Assembly: GCF_046119375.1 (NCBI RefSeq)
Contig: NW_027362771.1
Span: 580,878,001 to 580,942,000, forward strand
DNA length: 64,000 nucleotides
DNA from: Phyllobates terribilis
Taxonomy: Eukaryota
Direction of reading: 5' to 3'
Position numbers: made by a program. Positions 38,701 through 50,300 of the stretch are shown here, in pieces. Position 1 is the stretch's first letter. Every line of letters starts with the position of its first letter.

Positions 38701-41700
38701 ACCAAATCCTGACTGATAGCAGTCCATTCTTGCATAATCAATGCTTGCATTTTGCCAGAATTTGTTGGTTTTTGTTTGTCCACCCGTCTCTTGATGATTG
38801 ACCACAAGTTCTCAATGGGATTAAGATCTGGGGAGTTTCCAGGCCATGGACCCAAAATCTCTATGTTTTGTTCCATGAGCCATTTTGTTATCACCTTTGC
38901 TTTATGGCAAGGTGCTCCATCATGCTGGAAAAGGCATTTTTGGGCGCCAAACTGCTCTTGGACAGTTGGGAGAAGTTGCTCTTGGAGGACATTCTGGTAC
39001 CATTCTTTATTCATGGCTGTGTTTTTAGGCAAGACTGTGAGTGAGCCGATTCCCTTGGCTGAGAAGCAACCCCACACATGAATGGTTTCAGGATGCTTTA
39101 CAGTTGGCATGAGACAAGACTGGTGGTAGCGCTCACCTCTTCTTCTCCGAATAAGCTGTTTTCCAGATGTCCCAAACAATCGAAAAGGGGATTCATCAGA
39201 GAAAATGACTTTGCCCCAGTCCTCAGCAGTCCACTCCCTGTACCTTTTGCAGAATATCAGTCGGTCCCTGATGTTTTTTCTGGAGAGAAGTGGCTTCTTT
39301 GCTGCCCTCCTTGAAACCAGCCCTTGCTCAAAGAGTCTCCTCCTCACAGTGCGTGCAGAAGCACTCACACCAGCCTGCTGCCATTCCTGAGCAAGCTCGG
39401 CACTGCTGGTAGTCCGATCCCGCAGCTGAAACAGTTTTAAGATACGGTCCTGGCGCTTGCTGGTCTTTCTTGGGCGCCCTGGAGCCTTTTTGACAACAAT
39501 GGAAGCTCTCTCCTTGAAGTTCTTGATGATGCGATAGATTGTTGACTGAGGTGCAATCTTTGTAGCTGCGATACTCTTCCCTGTTAGGCCATTTTTGTGC
39601 AGTGCAATGATGGCTGCACGTGTTTCTTTAGAGATAACCATGGTTAACTGAAGAGAAACAATGATACCAAGAACCAGCCTCCTTTTAAAGTGTCCAGTGA
39701 TGTCATTCTTACTTAATCATGACTGATTGATCGCCAGCCCTGTCCTCATCAACACCCACACCTGTGTTAATGGATCAATCACTAAAACGATGTTAGCTGC
39801 TCCTTTTAAGGCAGGACTGCAATGATGTTGAAATGTGTTTTGGGGGTTAAAGTTCATTTTCTGGGCAAATATTGACTTTGCAAGTACAGTAATTGCTGTT
39901 AAGCTGATCACTCTTTGACATTCAGGAGTATATGCAAATTGCCATTACAAAAAATGAAGCAGTAAACTTTGGAAAAACTACTATTTGTCTCATTCTCAAT
40001 ACTTTTGGCCATGACTGTACACTGGGGGGGGGGGGGTGAGGGGCCGGAGGTTATACACTGGGGGGTGAGGGGCCGGAGGTTATACACTGGGGGGGGCGAG
40101 GGGCTGGATGTTATACACTGGGGGGGTGAGGGGCCGGATGTTATACACTGGGGGGGGTGAGGGGCTGGATGTTATACACTGGGGGGGTGAGGGGCTGGAT
40201 GTTATACACTGGGGGGTGAGGGGCCGGATGTTATACACTGGGGGGGGGTGAGGGGCCGGATGTTATACACTGGGGGGGGTGAGGGGCCGGATGTTATACA
40301 CTGGGGGGGGGGGGGGGGGGGCGAGGGGCCGGATGTTATACACTGGGGGGTGAGGGGCTTGATGTTATACACTGGGGGGTGAGATGCTGGATGTACAGAC
40401 ACAACTCTAGGAGCGTCGGACATGTTGGTTGCCTCCAGCTTCCCAGAAGCAGATGGAAGTTATAACCTTGTGGCCAGAATGGCTTCTGTCTCTGGGGGGC
40501 AGCACTTTGTGACACTCACATATTACACTACTTTTCCTGGCAGATGGGTTCTGTCTTTTCCCATGTTTTCGTGCCTCCTTTCTCGTGCCCTGGTTACCCT
40601 TTGTGGTCCCAGGCTTCACCCTTTGTGGTCCGGGCTTTCCCCTGTGAATGGAGCGCGCCCTCACCGGAGCCGCTCGACTCTATTTATTGACATAAAGGCT
40701 TAGTTGTCAGAGCGCAGGTGACACATGACAGATTCTCCTCGTCCAGGTACACACAGCGCAGTATTTACCAGGAGCCGTGTCTCCAACACAACGCCGCTGT
40801 GCCGCTGCTGGAGAGGGGAGCACCACCGGCCACCATGGCATCCAAGACCAGTGGGAAGAGGGCCTCTGTGGCCAGCGTGCGGATCAGCCTGGACAACGCC
40901 GACAAAGCGGGACAGAAAATGGTAAAGTGTGTGACTGAGCTGTAGCATTATAATGTCTGCTGTAGAGTTATAAGCTTATTATATCGCTGATTGCAGCACA
41001 ACCGCAATGAGTAAGTCGGACATTCGTGGTCTGATGTGCGGCCGGGGGTCTCCTGTTCCAAGCTCAACAGTATAATTTGGGGTCAGGAGGGAGACCCCCG
41101 GCCGGCTCAGCCTTGACGCTCCATATTTAGACCATGAATTGTGCTGCAGTTTGCTGGAGCCACATTATATCATGAGACTGAACACAGCACTGACCTTATT
41201 ACACAGACTGGAGCATTATAGCCATATATCAGGTCTGCGGTGAGCGCTGCACTATTATCACCCTATAACACAGAACCAAAACCGAGGTGATAAAGAGGTA
41301 GTGTGTAATAACATTATTACAGGCGTGACGTTATACAGAAGCACAGAGGAGACTATAGGCTCGTACAATGTAATACTGTAGTGTGGGGGGGTAATTAAGT
41401 CAATTAATTTTCCTGAGGGGCCACACTAATAGGCTGAAATAAATTCTGCTCAGTATTAATATTAACATATTAAGTATCACTATTTTATATAATATTAATT
41501 GTATCACTTAATATTGATCAGAATTAAGTATGCTGACATCCCCCTATATACCATATGCCCCGCACACAGCCCACTATATACAGTATGAGCCCCCACACAA
41601 CCCCCTTATATACAGCATGATCCCACACAGACCTCCGATATACAGTATGAGCCCCCACACAGACCTCCGATATACAGTATGAGCCCCCACACACAGCTCC

Positions 41701-47300: not shown

Positions 47301-50300
47301 GGCAACAATAGCACGTAACCGGGTGACATTTTTTTTTTTTTTTGCAGTTCTGAAGTAAAGCAAACATTTAAATTTTACTTAAAGGGCCCATTTATTACAT
47401 AAGAGGTCATTTCTCCCAAAATAATGAATGCTTTTTCTTAACGCCCTGCTGAACCGAAGAAATATGGATATTTATAGATCTCTGATCAGTCCACTCTCCT
47501 AGCATTTGTAATGCTACTTACTCAGGGTTGGTGGCAAAAAAACAGGGGAAGAGAGTGACTGGGGGGCCGCACTCCACCTGGGCCCAGGGTGACTGGGTCA
47601 CCGCCCTCTGCTCGGACCCAGGGTGACTGGGTCACCACCCTCTGCTCGGGTCCAGGGTGACTGGGTCACCGCCCTCTGTCTGGGCCCACGGTGACTGGGG
47701 GGGGCCACCCTCTGTCCGGGCCCAGGGTAACTGGGGGGGGGGGGCGCACTCTGCCTGGGCCCAAGGTGACTGGGGAGGCCACACTCTGCCTGGGCCCAAG
47801 GTGACTGGGGAGGCCACACTCTGCCTGGGCCCAGGGTGACTTGGGGGCCACACTCTGCCTTGGCCCAGGGTGACAGGGGCGACAAACTCTGACTGGGGGG
47901 CCACACTATGCCCGGGCCAAGGGTAACTGGGGGGGGCCATCCTCTGTCCGGGCTTATGGTGACTGGGGGCCGCCCTCAGCTTAGGCCCAGGGTGACTGGG
48001 GGGGGCGCACTCTGTCTGGGCCCAGGGTAACTGGGGGGGCCGCCCTCTGCTCGGGCCCAGGGTAACTGGGGGGGCCATCCTCTGTCCGGGCTTATGGTGA
48101 CTGGGGGCCACCCTCAGCTTAGGCCCAGGGTGACTGGGGGGGCCGCACTCTGTCTGGGCCGAGGGTGACTGGGGGGGCCGCCCTCTGCTCGGGCCCAGAG
48201 TGACTGGGGGGGCCACCCTCTGTCCGGGCTTATTGTGACTTGGGGCCGCCATCTGCTTGGGCCCAGGGTGACTGGGGGGGGGCGCACTCTGTCCGGGCCC
48301 AGGGTGACTGGGGGGGCCGCACTCTGCCTGGGCCTAGTGTGACTGGGGAGGCCACACTCTGCCTGGGCCCAAGGTGACTGGGGAGCCACACTCTGCCTGG
48401 GCCCAGGGTGACTTGGGGGCCACACTCTGCCTGGGCCCAGGGTGACTTGGGGGCCACACTCTGCCTGGGCCCAGGGTGACAGGGGCGACAAACTCTGACT
48501 GGGGGGCCACACTATGCCCGGGCCAAGGGGGACCGGGGGCTGCCCTCTGTATGGGCCCAGGGTGACTGGGGGAGCCACCCTCTGCCCAGGGTGACTGGTG
48601 GGCTGAACTCTGACTGGGGCCAGGGTGACTGGGGGGGCCGCACTCTGCCTTGGCCCAGGGTGACTGGTGGGCTGAACTCTGACTTGGGCCAGGGTGACTG
48701 GGGGTCTTCACTCTGCCTGGGCCCAGGGTGACTGGTGGGCTGCACTCTGCCCAGGCTTTGATTTGCAGAACCCAACATACGGTATGTATAGAGAGTGCTC
48801 AGGAGCCATGTTATATGGCCGCCACCCAGTGCTCCGATCGCAGCAATTTAACCTCTTTAGATGCCGCTGACAATAGTAACCGCAACATTTAGGAGGTTTG
48901 AAATACGTCTGAGTCCCCTAGAGGGGACAAATAAAAATGAAAAAAAAATACAAAATTATAAAAGTCCATATCACCGCCTTTTTCCTGTAATTAAAATCCA
49001 AAATATGAAAAAATATATCAAAATAAATAATAAAAATATTAAATAATTAAAAAAGAAATAAGAAAAAAATATATTTGTTATCGCCGTGTGTGCAATCGAA
49101 ATGGCAAAATCACAGATTTTTAAGGATTTTACACCCCCCACCCAAAAAAATGGAATAAAATGATTTTGGAGAAGTCGTATGGATCAAAAAGTGGTGCCTA
49201 TAAAAGACTACAGCTCATACCGTAAAAAAACACCCTGATATAATGGTATCAAAGAAGAAATTAAAACGTTATATTTATTGAAGGCGAAGAGGGGCCCTCT
49301 GAGACGACTTCGCCATGTACTGACCTATTTCTGCTTTCTCTAACCCCCCCAGCCTCCGTCATTTGCCTCCCGGCCACCAGAGAAGGTCCAGGTCTCCGCC
49401 ATAAGGAACATTCTGGAAAGCTATCTCCCATTACGGTTGGGGGACACCACCTATGAGCCCCAAAAAGTGCCATCGCTAGTGAAGGAGATCAGCGAGGAGA
49501 TCAGGAGCCAGGTGAAGAAGGTCTTACCTGCACGATACAAGATGCTATGTGTGGCCACCATGGGCGAGAGGGGTCAGGAAGACATCAAAGTGGTCAGCCG
49601 CTGCCTCTGGGACCCCCATGCTGACAATTATGCAGCTCACGTGTACCAGAATGATAGTCTGTTCTGTGTGGTGTCTGTATACATGGTATTCTGCGAGTGA
49701 CACTGTGTGGGCCTGCTATGTGGCCGTCACTATATGTCCTGTCTGTCGTCAATGCCACCCCGGCCGTGGACCCAAGGACATTACTCTGCCCGCCGCATAC
49801 AAAGAAACTATGGAGGGAAAACAGACTTGTCAGACTCTGCTGTCTCTAGTAGTTATGGGGAAATGGAGTTTTCAGATGCTCTTAAAGGGTTAATCAGGGG
49901 GCACTAATGATGCCCATCACACAGCCCCCTGTATTGGAGTCTGGTGGGCTGCGCGCAGCATCAAATGTCCAGCTAAGACGGACACTATGGGGCATAACGT
50001 CAGCGAAAAGTCATATATATATATGTAACTACCCCGAAAACCGCTACCAGCCCCCCCCCACCCCCCACGTCTGGACATCACACGAATATCTCACCATGAA
50101 TCTAATGTGTAAGACGTCCCAATAAACCTTCAGGGTCTGGTTACAGATCCAGTGTCCGGTGCTCAGTTATCGGCTGTGATGTGGGATCAGATTTATTCTC
50201 CAGAATAGAAATCCCCGACCTTTATGAATAGAAGTGTTTGTGACCAGCTGCCAATGGAAAGCTGGAGAACGAGGGGCGTAGTGGTACCTCAAATATCAAC

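What the first reader, a model, noticed from the sequence alone, without database searches (positions are those of the whole stretch)
40835..49700. Extra Tctex-1/DYNLT-family gene between TIMM29 and SMARCA4
Seen: four all-phase-0 exons (87+105+57+348 nt) with canonical splice sites, a perfect Kozak and a downstream AATAAA assemble into a 198-aa ORF with a C-terminal Tctex-1 domain and an ~83-aa basic N-terminal extension I do not recognise. Established: human has no protein-coding gene here to my knowledge; the domain looks closest to TCTEX1D1/DYNLT5 and TCTEX1D4/DYNLT4, which lie on human 1p, as does the YIPF2 paralogue YIPF1. Inference: an ancient paralogue (possibly an ohnologue) lost in mammals, likely an axonemal or IFT dynein light chain. 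The ORF stays intact despite introns full of repeats, which suggests selection.
Basis: partly seen in the sequence, partly recalled or inferred. Interest (0 to 1): 0.65.

Follow-up and report, generated by a model that had tools for sequence, protein, structure and literature searches.

The report
Tctex-type dynein light chain gene
A small four-exon gene for a dynein motor accessory protein lies between TIMM29 and SMARCA4 in this non-mammalian vertebrate sequence; it looks real and ordinary, but its relation to the six human family genes could not be settled here.

Summary
Four phase-0 exons (87+105+57+348 nt) on the + strand have GT-AG introns, a GCCACCATGG start and an AATAAA 421 nt after the stop. 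The last exon encodes a complete Tctex-1 domain (Pfam E 5.6e-27, profile 2-95 of 95). The two internal exons carry the two strongest donor sites of 418 GT sites in the interval. Two such in-phase exons arose in 2 of 1000 simulated intervals. Exons 1-3 show a third-position GC excess that 0 of 5000 intronic samples reached. Flanks are TIMM29 and SMARCA4, both on the + strand. Among solved structures the domain is nearest the Tctex2 group: human DYNLT2B at 34-37% identity, then Chlamydomonas LC2 and Tctex2b. It is far from DYNLT1, so it is orthologous to neither DYNLT2B nor DYNLT1/3. Whether it is a seventh paralogue lost in mammals or the orthologue of DYNLT4/5 at another locus could not be tested. 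The joined model was never assembled or searched. Verdict: a real, ordinary gene, a new member of a known kind.

The parts
40829..40838 (+). Start context GCCACCATGG (ATG at 40835)
   Evidence: 2 matches in the window, both strands, against 0.19 expected; 3 of 100 shuffles had 2 or more. The other match, at 49554, lies inside exon 4. An in-frame stop lies upstream at 40688.
40835..40921 (+). Exon 1, 87 nt, 29 codons from the ATG; donor ATG|gtaaag. The least certain exon.
   Evidence: Donor score 5.2 bits. GC at codon positions 1/2/3 is 0.48/0.52/0.79. CpG o/e is 0.6-0.8 here against 0.51 for the window, so there is no clear CpG island. No Pfam or solved-structure match.
44191..44295 (+). Exon 2, 105 nt, 35 codons, phase 0-0
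   Evidence: Donor AAG|gtaagt scores 12.2 bits, rank 2 of 418. Acceptor scores 7.1 bits, rank 15 of 508. Only frame 0 is open. Not repeated elsewhere in the window apart from a 30-nt microsatellite match in its flank. No Pfam, solved-structure or Atlas lead.
46883..46939 (+). Exon 3, 57 nt, 19 codons, phase 0-0
   Evidence: Donor CAG|gtgagt scores 12.7 bits, rank 1 of 418. Acceptor scores 4.8 bits, rank 58 of 508. Only frame 0 is open. Too short (19 aa) for the protein search tools.
49318..49324 (+). Branch-point-like TACTGAC, 29 nt before the exon 4 acceptor, followed by a pyrimidine tract
   Evidence: Read. The consensus is recalled, not scored.
49353..49700 (+). Exon 4, 348 nt: 115 codons plus TGA. 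Holds the whole globular domain.
   Evidence: The frame opens only at 49344, after a TAA, and the first Met in this exon lies inside the domain (translation), so the exon needs upstream coding exons. Acceptor 6.0 bits.
49401..49682 (+). Tctex-1 domain (residues 17-110 of the exon 4 translation)
   Evidence: Pfam PF03645, E 5.6e-27, 94.3 bits against a cut-off of 22.8, profile 2-95 of 95. Single-sequence AlphaFold2 model: two helices then three strands, mean pLDDT 67.4, pTM 0.62. Foldseek: 30 PDB matches at E<=0.001, the best being Tctex-type light chains, TM 0.73.
50121..50126 (+). First AATAAA after the stop, implying a 3' UTR of about 0.44 kb
   Evidence: It lies before the 28-bp tandem array at 50325-51345.
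34030..34707 (+). Upstream flank: TIMM29 main coding exon
   Evidence: Pfam Tim29, E 5.6e-59, profile 16-169 of 169.
63669..63998 (+). Downstream flank: SMARCA4 exon with the QLQ domain
   Evidence: Pfam QLQ, E 2.7e-16. Best solved-structure matches are BRG1/SMARCA4, E 7.5e-34.

Best explanation
This is a real protein-coding gene on the + strand for a Tctex2-group dynein light chain. About 83 basic, Ser/Thr-rich and probably disordered residues come from three small exons. A complete Tctex-1 domain follows from one terminal exon.

Inferred mechanism, by analogy with the family: the domain pairs with itself or with another Tctex-type chain. The pair clamps the N-terminal region of a dynein intermediate chain in an axonemal dynein arm or dynein-2. 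The basic tail, with several [RK]x[ST]-type sites, would be a phospho-regulated or docking segment like the disordered N-terminus described for DYNLT4.

Shown here: the exon anatomy, the domain, the fold class and the flanks. Inferred: splicing of the upstream exons, expression, partners and tissue.
For: - Domain: complete Tctex-1, E 5.6e-27.
- Solved-structure sequence search, 20 distinct sequences at E<=1: human DYNLT2B 1.7e-20 (76.5 bits), Chlamydomonas outer-arm LC2 7.1e-19, Chlamydomonas inner-arm light chain 1.6e-17. DYNLT1 scores only 8.1e-8 (35.7 bits).
- The Chlamydomonas inner-arm alignment already starts at residue 3 of exon 4. So the residues just after the acceptor are homologous coding sequence.
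- Fold: helix-helix-strands model, and Foldseek's top hits are all axonemal or dynein-2 Tctex-type chains at 25-37% identity.
- Pairing of two copies of the domain: score 0.50, best of 3 controls 0.01. The mark was reached by 21 of 30 proteins solved as pairs of one chain and by 0 of 23 solved as single chains (microbes). On eukaryotes it was 17 of 29 (animals 7 of 16), but only 1 of 7 with no older solved relative, and 0 of 30 single chains. Runs agree in at least 53% of contacts, and partner pLDDT is at least 71. Tctex dimers are solved, so this pass may be from memory. It shows likeness, not binding.
- Exons: top-two donors; 2 of 1000 simulations; pooled GC3 of E1-E3 0.69 against GC1/GC2 0.51/0.45, an excess reached by 0 of 5000 intronic samples. 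E4 has GC3 0.67 and TIMM29 0.71.
- Other signals: perfect start context and AATAAA.
- Literature: PMC3654263 (section 5) for the DYNLT4 layout; PMC7785291 (passages) reports Tctex1d1 enriched in a Dnai2 pull-down from Xenopus multiciliated cells.
Against: - There is no transcript evidence of any kind.
- Exons 1-3 match nothing.
- The exon 1 donor is only moderate (5.2 bits).
The top-ranked chains I saw (top 15 by mean site score, top 8 by total) all contain the E2 donor and most contain E3, but with other starts, such as ATGs at 44167 and 44194.
- There is no CpG island and no RFX X-box at the putative promoter. The three X-box matches in the window (25138, 36037, 51752) are about what my own estimate of the pattern's frequency gives by chance.
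- The structure model is only moderate (pLDDT 67.4, single sequence).
- Ciliary function, partners and the role of the tail are analogy only.
Confidence: 0.8

Rival explanations
1. One reading: a seventh vertebrate DYNLT gene. It would be an old paralogue, possibly a 2R ohnologue of DYNLT4/DYNLT5, kept at the TIMM29-SMARCA4 locus in this lineage and lost in mammals.
For: The locus is flanked by TIMM29 and SMARCA4. The review PMC8754002 (passages and section 18 read) lists only six human DYNLT genes. PMC3654263 places human DYNLT4 at 1p34.1. The domain is about equally distant from human DYNLT2B, Chlamydomonas LC2 and the Chlamydomonas inner-arm chain (76.5, 71.3 and 67.0 bits), as expected for a separate branch of the Tctex2 group. 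From recall only: human 1p31-p34 and 19p13.2 share many paralogue pairs (LRP8/LDLR, DOCK7/DOCK6, YIPF1/YIPF2).
Against: Nothing here shows that this genome also holds separate DYNLT4 and DYNLT5 orthologues. No tree could be built. The layout matches the one published for DYNLT4 (PMC3654263 section 5), which that paper also reports in chicken and zebrafish.
Confidence: 0.4
2. It is the orthologue of a named gene, most likely DYNLT4 and less likely DYNLT5 or DYNLT2. It sits at a different place than in human because one lineage's copy moved. The mammalian 2-exon DYNLT4 could be a relocated, perhaps retroposed, copy.
For: PMC3654263 (section 5) describes human TCTEX1D4 as 221 aa with a disordered N-terminal part (1-95) carrying PKA-type Ser sites, a globular part (96-221) and only 2 exons. 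Here the whole globular part lies in one exon, and the 83-residue tail is basic with 13 Ser/Thr. The same paper finds TCTEX1D4 in chicken and zebrafish but names no frog. From recall only, not tested: the stretch just before the domain and the C-terminal end resemble human DYNLT4.
Against: There are four coding exons here against two exons in total in human. There is no RVSF motif, although the paper says that motif is confined to placental mammals. None of the human 1p34.1 neighbours is in the window. No sequence comparison with DYNLT4, 5 or 2 was possible.
Confidence: 0.4
3. The domain exon and exons 2-3 are real, but the 5' end differs. Translation would start at an ATG at 44167 or 44194 in a first exon that runs into exon 2, or from an exon I did not see. 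One of the symmetric exons may also be a cassette exon.
For:: the best-scoring chains by mean site score start at 44167, 44194 or 44278 and use the E2 donor. The exon 1 donor is moderate (5.2 bits). All exons are phase 0-0, so skipping any of them keeps the frame.
Against: Exon 1 has the perfect GCCACCATGG context, the highest GC3 of the four exons (0.79) and the right phase. Exon 2 has a good acceptor in phase (7.1 bits), which a first exon would not need.
Confidence: 0.25
4. It is an unexpressed relic: a decaying or recently silenced copy whose frame happens to be still open.
For: There is no expression evidence, no CpG island and no X-box. The gene sits among transposons and satellites.
Against: The Pfam profile is covered end to end with no stop or shift. 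Three upstream exons are in phase with strong sites. All four exons show GC3 excess. It is not a retrocopy, because the frame closes 9 nt upstream of the acceptor (TAA ending at 49343).
Confidence: 0.07

Closest known systems
DYNLT4 (TCTEX1D4)
   Same: A disordered, Ser-rich N-terminal part with PKA-type sites before a C-terminal Tctex-1 globular domain, and a similar size (221 aa in human; PMC3654263 section 5). Here the whole globular part lies in one exon. An N-x-S motif sits about 16 residues from the C-terminus in both, but DYNLT2B has it too.
   Different: Human has 2 exons and lies at 1p34.1. Here there are 4 coding exons beside TIMM29 and SMARCA4. There is no RVSF; an RISL occurs in exon 1, which is not a canonical motif. 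Sequence relatedness was not tested.
DYNLT5 (TCTEX1D1)
   Same: A Tctex2-group member with an N-terminal extension. It is old (a sea urchin 1:1 orthologue is reported, PMC8754002 section 18) and was found with outer-arm dynein in Xenopus multiciliated cells (PMC7785291, passages).
   Different: No sequence or gene structure of DYNLT5 could be reached here.
DYNLT2B (TCTEX1D2), dynein-2 and inner arm I1/f light chain
   Same: The best solved-structure relative: E 1.7e-20, with 34-37% identity over 101-115 columns. Same fold.
   Different: The identity is no higher than to algal and ciliate members, so this is not its orthologue. DYNLT2B is 142 aa with a short N-terminus, against an 83-residue tail here.
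Chlamydomonas LC2 (named the DYNLT2 orthologue in Table 2 of PMC8754002) and the Chlamydomonas inner-arm light chain 8glv_AS (Tctex2b by my recall)
   Same: E 7.1e-19 and 1.6e-17. The alignment with the inner-arm chain covers the pre-domain stretch from residue 3 of exon 4.
   Different: These are algal proteins of 136 and 120 aa without the long basic tail.
DYNLT1 / DYNLT3 (Tctex1 group)
   Same: Same Pfam family and fold.
   Different: Much more distant: 35.7 bits and 18-20% identity. No N-terminal extension.

Membership tests
Tctex-1 / DYNLT family | Tctex-1 domain above Pfam's curated cut-off | tested here: met
   PF03645, 94.3 bits against a cut-off of 22.8, E 5.6e-27, profile 2-95 of 95. 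Atlas: 30 of 30 feature hits are Tctex-1 clusters, best 0.93.
Tctex-1 / DYNLT family | Two helices followed by a beta sheet (Tctex fold) | tested here: met
   Single-sequence AlphaFold2 model: H11-29, H36-57, E62-72, E91-99, E103-113. Mean pLDDT 67.4, with residues 78-88 below 50, so one strand is not resolved. Foldseek TM 0.64-0.73 to Tctex-type chains, 30 matches at E<=0.001.
Tctex-1 / DYNLT family | Forms a homo- or heterodimer through the beta sheet | tested here: inconclusive
   Two copies of the domain: score 0.50, best of 3 controls 0.01. The mark was reached by 21 of 30 solved same-chain pairs and 0 of 23 single chains (microbes). On eukaryotes it was 17 of 29 (animals 7 of 16) but only 1 of 7 with no older solved relative. 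Runs agree in at least 53% of contacts; pLDDT at least 71. Similar dimers are solved, so the pass may be from memory. Heterodimers were not tested.
Tctex-1 / DYNLT family | Binds a dynein intermediate chain and is part of a dynein complex | not testable with these tools
   This needs co-purification. No intermediate chain of this organism was at hand.
Tctex2 group (DYNLT2, 2B, 4, 5) as against Tctex1 group (DYNLT1, 3) | Closer in sequence to Tctex2-type than to Tctex1-type chains | tested here: met
   67-76.5 bits to DYNLT2B, LC2 and the Chlamydomonas inner-arm chain, against 35.7 bits to DYNLT1, 19.9 to Chlamydomonas Tctex1 and 13.1 to LC9. The two-group split is described in PMC3654263 section 5.
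DYNLT2B orthologue | Clearly higher identity to vertebrate DYNLT2B than to protist members; short N-terminus | tested here: not met
   34-37% identity to human DYNLT2B against 29-32% to Chlamydomonas and Tetrahymena chains. Bit scores are nearly level. The tail is 83 residues long.
DYNLT4 orthologue | Disordered Ser-rich N-terminal part of about 95 residues plus a globular C-terminal part | tested here: met
   83 residues with 13 Ser/Thr and net charge about +11, plus a 115-residue domain exon. This matches the layout in PMC3654263 section 5. Disorder itself was not predicted here.
DYNLT4 orthologue | Groups with DYNLT4 in a family tree | not testable with these tools
No DYNLT4 chain was among the 20 solved-structure sequences matched.
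DYNLT4 orthologue | Same gene structure and neighbourhood as human DYNLT4 (2 exons, 1p34.1) | tested here: not met
   Four coding exons, and the neighbours are TIMM29 and SMARCA4. The human data come from PMC3654263. Structure and place can change between orthologues, so this lowers the claim but does not exclude it.
DYNLT5 or DYNLT2 orthologue | Groups with DYNLT5 or DYNLT2 in a family tree | not testable with these tools
   No vertebrate DYNLT5 or DYNLT2 sequence was reachable. Only Chlamydomonas LC2 was seen.

The most novel reading that the evidence does not exclude
Vertebrates began with at least seven Tctex-type light chain genes. This one would be an ohnologue of DYNLT4/DYNLT5 on the chromosome segment that carries YIPF2-TIMM29-SMARCA4. 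It would survive in amphibian-like lineages with its own basic regulatory tail and was lost in mammals. Non-mammalian cilia or sperm would then have a dynein subunit with no human counterpart.
Probability: 0.4. Interest if true: 0.45.

Novelty: new member of a known kind. Interest (0 to 1): 0.3.

Why it matters
If it is only the local DYNLT4 or DYNLT5 orthologue, this is routine annotation. If it is a seventh paralogue, the dynein light-chain set of non-mammalian vertebrates is larger than the six-gene human nomenclature (PMC8754002). That would matter for proteomics and knock-down work on cilia in frog embryos, where a light chain without a human namesake could be overlooked or misassigned. 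If instead the mammalian 2-exon DYNLT4 proves to be a moved copy of this locus, that would explain the origin of a poorly characterised gene. Neither outcome changes how dynein is thought to work.

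Tried and rejected
- Homology for the tail: Pfam on E1 and E2 found 0 families. Solved-structure search on E1 and E2 at E<=10 found 0 hits. The Atlas on E2 gave a best score of 0.79 to a bacterial hypothetical cluster with recognition 1310, which is uninformative. E3 has 19 aa, below the tools' minimum.
- The Atlas on E4 returned only generic Tctex-1 clusters, with no subfamily resolution.
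- Promoter signals: no CpG island at exon 1. RFX X-box matches lie at 25138, 36037 and 51752 only, about what my own estimate of the pattern's frequency gives by chance.
- Uniqueness of the exon chain: permissive thresholds gave 937,819 chains, so this test does not single out the model.
- Start context: only weak support, since 3 of 100 shuffles had 2 or more matches.
- Rfam and tRNA scans of the window found nothing.
- Literature searches turned up no paper on a Tctex gene beside TIMM29 or SMARCA4 and none on a frog dynlt4. One search was too broad (42,482 papers, 30 seen). In one search, 359 papers matched and 15 were listed; two held timm29, both with no bearing on the question by title and abstract. 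PMC3795061 had none of my six search words. PMC4614626 gave only pairwise identities among the human paralogues. The bioRxiv preprint 10.1101/2025.05.20.655139 had no bearing on the question.
- Supplements are closed. The pull-down tables of PMC7785291 might list this protein and could not be seen.
- Rejected readings: a retrocopy, because the frame closes just upstream of the acceptor; repeat-derived exons, because self-BLAST found no other copy; and a gene on the minus strand, because there were 0 exon-like segments there.
- Left unchecked because closed: the search for homologous proteins, the search of protein representatives, and the metagenome and viral contig collections.
- The genome-contig scan holds only bacteria and archaea, so I did not use it.

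Full report
Scope and limits. The window has no N. I do not take it for human. It carries an intact Tc1 transposon and many satellites. Its SMARCA4 QLQ exon aligns to human BRG1 only with length differences (query 8-110 against chain 118-210). It looks like a non-mammalian vertebrate. The joined 198-residue sequence was never assembled, searched or folded, so nothing here tests the protein as a whole.

The observation. The ATG at 40835 sits in GCCACCATGG, and 87 nt later comes ATG|gtaaag. Among stop-free AG..GT/GC segments of the stated lengths, 9 had 105 nt and 23 had 57 nt. Only 44191-44295 (..ctcccatgtgcag| ... AAG|gtaagt) and 46883-46939 (..ctcggttag| ... CAG|gtgagt) have consensus donors. 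The last exon is 49353-49700, after ..ctttctctaaccccccCAG and a TACTGAC branch-point-like site 29 nt upstream, and it ends in TGA. All four lengths are multiples of three. An in-frame stop at 40688 precedes the ATG. The first AATAAA after the stop is at 50121.

Is it more than chance? I scored sites with splice-site weight tables built from recalled vertebrate consensus frequencies, so the bits are approximate.
- The donors of exons 3 and 2 are the two best of 418 GT sites between exon 1 and exon 4: 12.7 and 12.2 bits against 8.4 for the next.
- At the model's own thresholds, only four exon-like open segments exist in the whole window on both strands. Two of them are these exons.
- First-order Markov simulations of the interval gave a mean of 0.037 such segments. 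Two in phase 0 arose in 2 of 1000. The thresholds were chosen after the fact, so this is generous.
- Independently, exons 1-3 pooled have GC 0.51/0.45/0.69 at codon positions 1/2/3. That third-position excess was reached by 0 of 5000 random intronic samples. It matches exon 4 (0.67) and the TIMM29 exon (0.71).
- None of the exons is part of a repeat family in the window.
The top-ranked chains I saw (top 15 by mean site score, top 8 by total) all contain the exon 2 donor and most contain exon 3, but some start at ATGs at 44167 or 44194 instead of exon 1.
- The start context is suggestive only: 2 matches against 0.19 expected, and 3 of 100 shuffles had 2 or more. The second match is inside exon 4.

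I put the gene at about 0.85-0.9 real, and the exact four-exon reading at about 0.6. Exon 1 is the weakest part.

What it encodes. Exon 4 is a complete Tctex-1 domain (PF03645, E 5.6e-27, profile 2-95 of 95). Its frame opens only 9 nt before the acceptor, and the first Met in the exon lies inside the domain. It therefore cannot stand alone and is not a retrocopy. A single-sequence AlphaFold2 model gives helix-helix-strands with mean pLDDT 67.4. Foldseek finds Tctex-type light chains of axonemal dyneins and dynein-2 first, with TM up to 0.73 and 30 matches at E<=0.001. Two copies of the domain were predicted to pair through the sheet. The score was 0.50 and the best of 3 controls 0.01. The mark was reached by 21 of 30 solved same-chain pairs and 0 of 23 single chains (microbes). 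On eukaryotes it was 17 of 29 (animals 7 of 16) but only 1 of 7 with no older solved relative. Runs agreed in at least 53% of contacts, and pLDDT was at least 71. Since Tctex dimers are solved, this shows likeness rather than binding. The 83 upstream residues are basic (K+R 16, D+E 5) with 13 Ser/Thr. They match nothing in Pfam, the solved structures or the Atlas.

Which family member? Among solved structures the domain scores 76.5 bits to human DYNLT2B, 71.3 to Chlamydomonas LC2 and 67.0 to a Chlamydomonas inner-arm light chain. It scores 35.7 to DYNLT1. Identities are 34-37% to DYNLT2B and 18-20% to DYNLT1. It therefore belongs to the Tctex2 half of the family described in PMC3654263 (section 5). 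It is orthologous to neither DYNLT2B nor DYNLT1/3, because it is no closer to human DYNLT2B than to algal members. The remaining candidates are DYNLT4, DYNLT5, DYNLT2 or a gene of its own.

Two facts from the literature bear on it. PMC8754002 (passages and section 18) counts six human paralogues, calls DYNLT4 and DYNLT5 poorly characterised, and gives DYNLT5 a sea urchin orthologue. PMC3654263 (section 5) describes human DYNLT4 as a 95-residue disordered, Ser-rich part with PKA-type sites followed by the globular part. It reports a gene of two exons at 1p34.1, found also in chicken and zebrafish. The layout here is the same, and the whole globular part lies in one exon. The exon count and the neighbours differ. 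From recall only, the pre-domain stretch and the C-terminal end look DYNLT4-like; this is a lead, not a test.

Surroundings. TIMM29 (Tim29, E 5.6e-59) lies at 34030-34707 on the + strand. The SMARCA4 QLQ exon lies at 63669-63998 on the + strand. An ORF at 62834-63193 reads like the SMARCA4 N-terminus by eye. A Yip1-type exon lies on the minus strand at 25793-26179 (E 1.5e-4, 22.1 bits, below the 28.6 cut-off), which is compatible with YIPF2. That human has nothing between TIMM29 and SMARCA4 is recall, and I made no comparison with human sequence. The putative promoter lies between a 31-bp satellite (40029-40394) and exon 1. It has no CpG island and no X-box.

Mechanism. Most likely (0.8) this is a working Tctex2-type light chain. 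A dimer of the domain would bind the N-terminal region of a dynein intermediate chain. The basic Ser/Thr-rich tail would serve regulation or docking, as proposed for DYNLT4 and protein phosphatase 1 (PMC3654263). An axonemal role is suggested by its nearest solved relatives. It is also suggested by the finding that Tctex1d1 co-purifies with Dnai2 in Xenopus multiciliated cells (PMC7785291, passages). All of this is analogy.

Verdict. This is a new member of a known kind, of modest interest.

Noticed in passing
window 38446-40019: A complete Tc1-like transposon. It has 48-nt terminal inverted repeats (85% complementary) and an uninterrupted 363-aa transposase frame on the minus strand (HTH_Tnp_Tc3_2 E 1.8e-18, DDE_3 E 8.9e-14). 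It is inserted in a 31-bp satellite that continues on both sides (about 37.8-38.47 kb and 40029-40394). It could still be mobile.
   Followed up: partly
window 41536-43798 (intron 1): A decayed Tc1 copy on the + strand (DDE_3 remnant at 42892-43176) is flanked on both sides by arrays of a related 31-bp satellite (41536-41868 and 43456-43798). These run in the opposite orientation to the arrays around the intact copy. This transposon family seems to sit preferentially in this satellite.
   Followed up: partly
window 30464-32052: A purine-rich tandem array (GC 0.65, strong GC and AT skew) keeps frames of 250-520 codons open in several frames on both strands. It lies in what should be the first intron of TIMM29 or its upstream region. 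The long ORFs are a repeat artefact.
   Followed up: no
window 24980-25194 and 25138-25151: These are the only other exon-like segments at the model's splice thresholds (two acceptors, one donor at 25194, + strand). They contain a near-palindromic RFX X-box match, GTCACCATGGCAAC. There was no Pfam hit for the surrounding ORF, and the meaning is unknown.
   Followed up: partly
window 49554-49563: The second perfect GCCACCATGG in the window lies inside exon 4, in frame, coding Ala-Thr-Met-Gly within the domain. It is probably coincidence, and it weakens the Kozak argument for exon 1.
   Followed up: yes
window 10135-12679 (minus strand): Several long frames read by eye like retrotransposon polymerase and integrase pieces. 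I did not check them with Pfam.
   Followed up: no
window 27953-28684: A 243-codon open frame between the YIPF-type gene and TIMM29 had no Pfam match at E<=0.01. Its end looks like a hAT transposase C-terminus by recall only.
   Followed up: partly
window 50325-51345, 53525-54619 and 59900-60100: Between this gene and the SMARCA4 start there is a 28-bp array of about 36 copies and a proline-codon-rich repeat with long frames. There are also two CpG-rich spots (o/e about 1.0-1.3). The one near 60 kb could be the SMARCA4 promoter.
   Followed up: no
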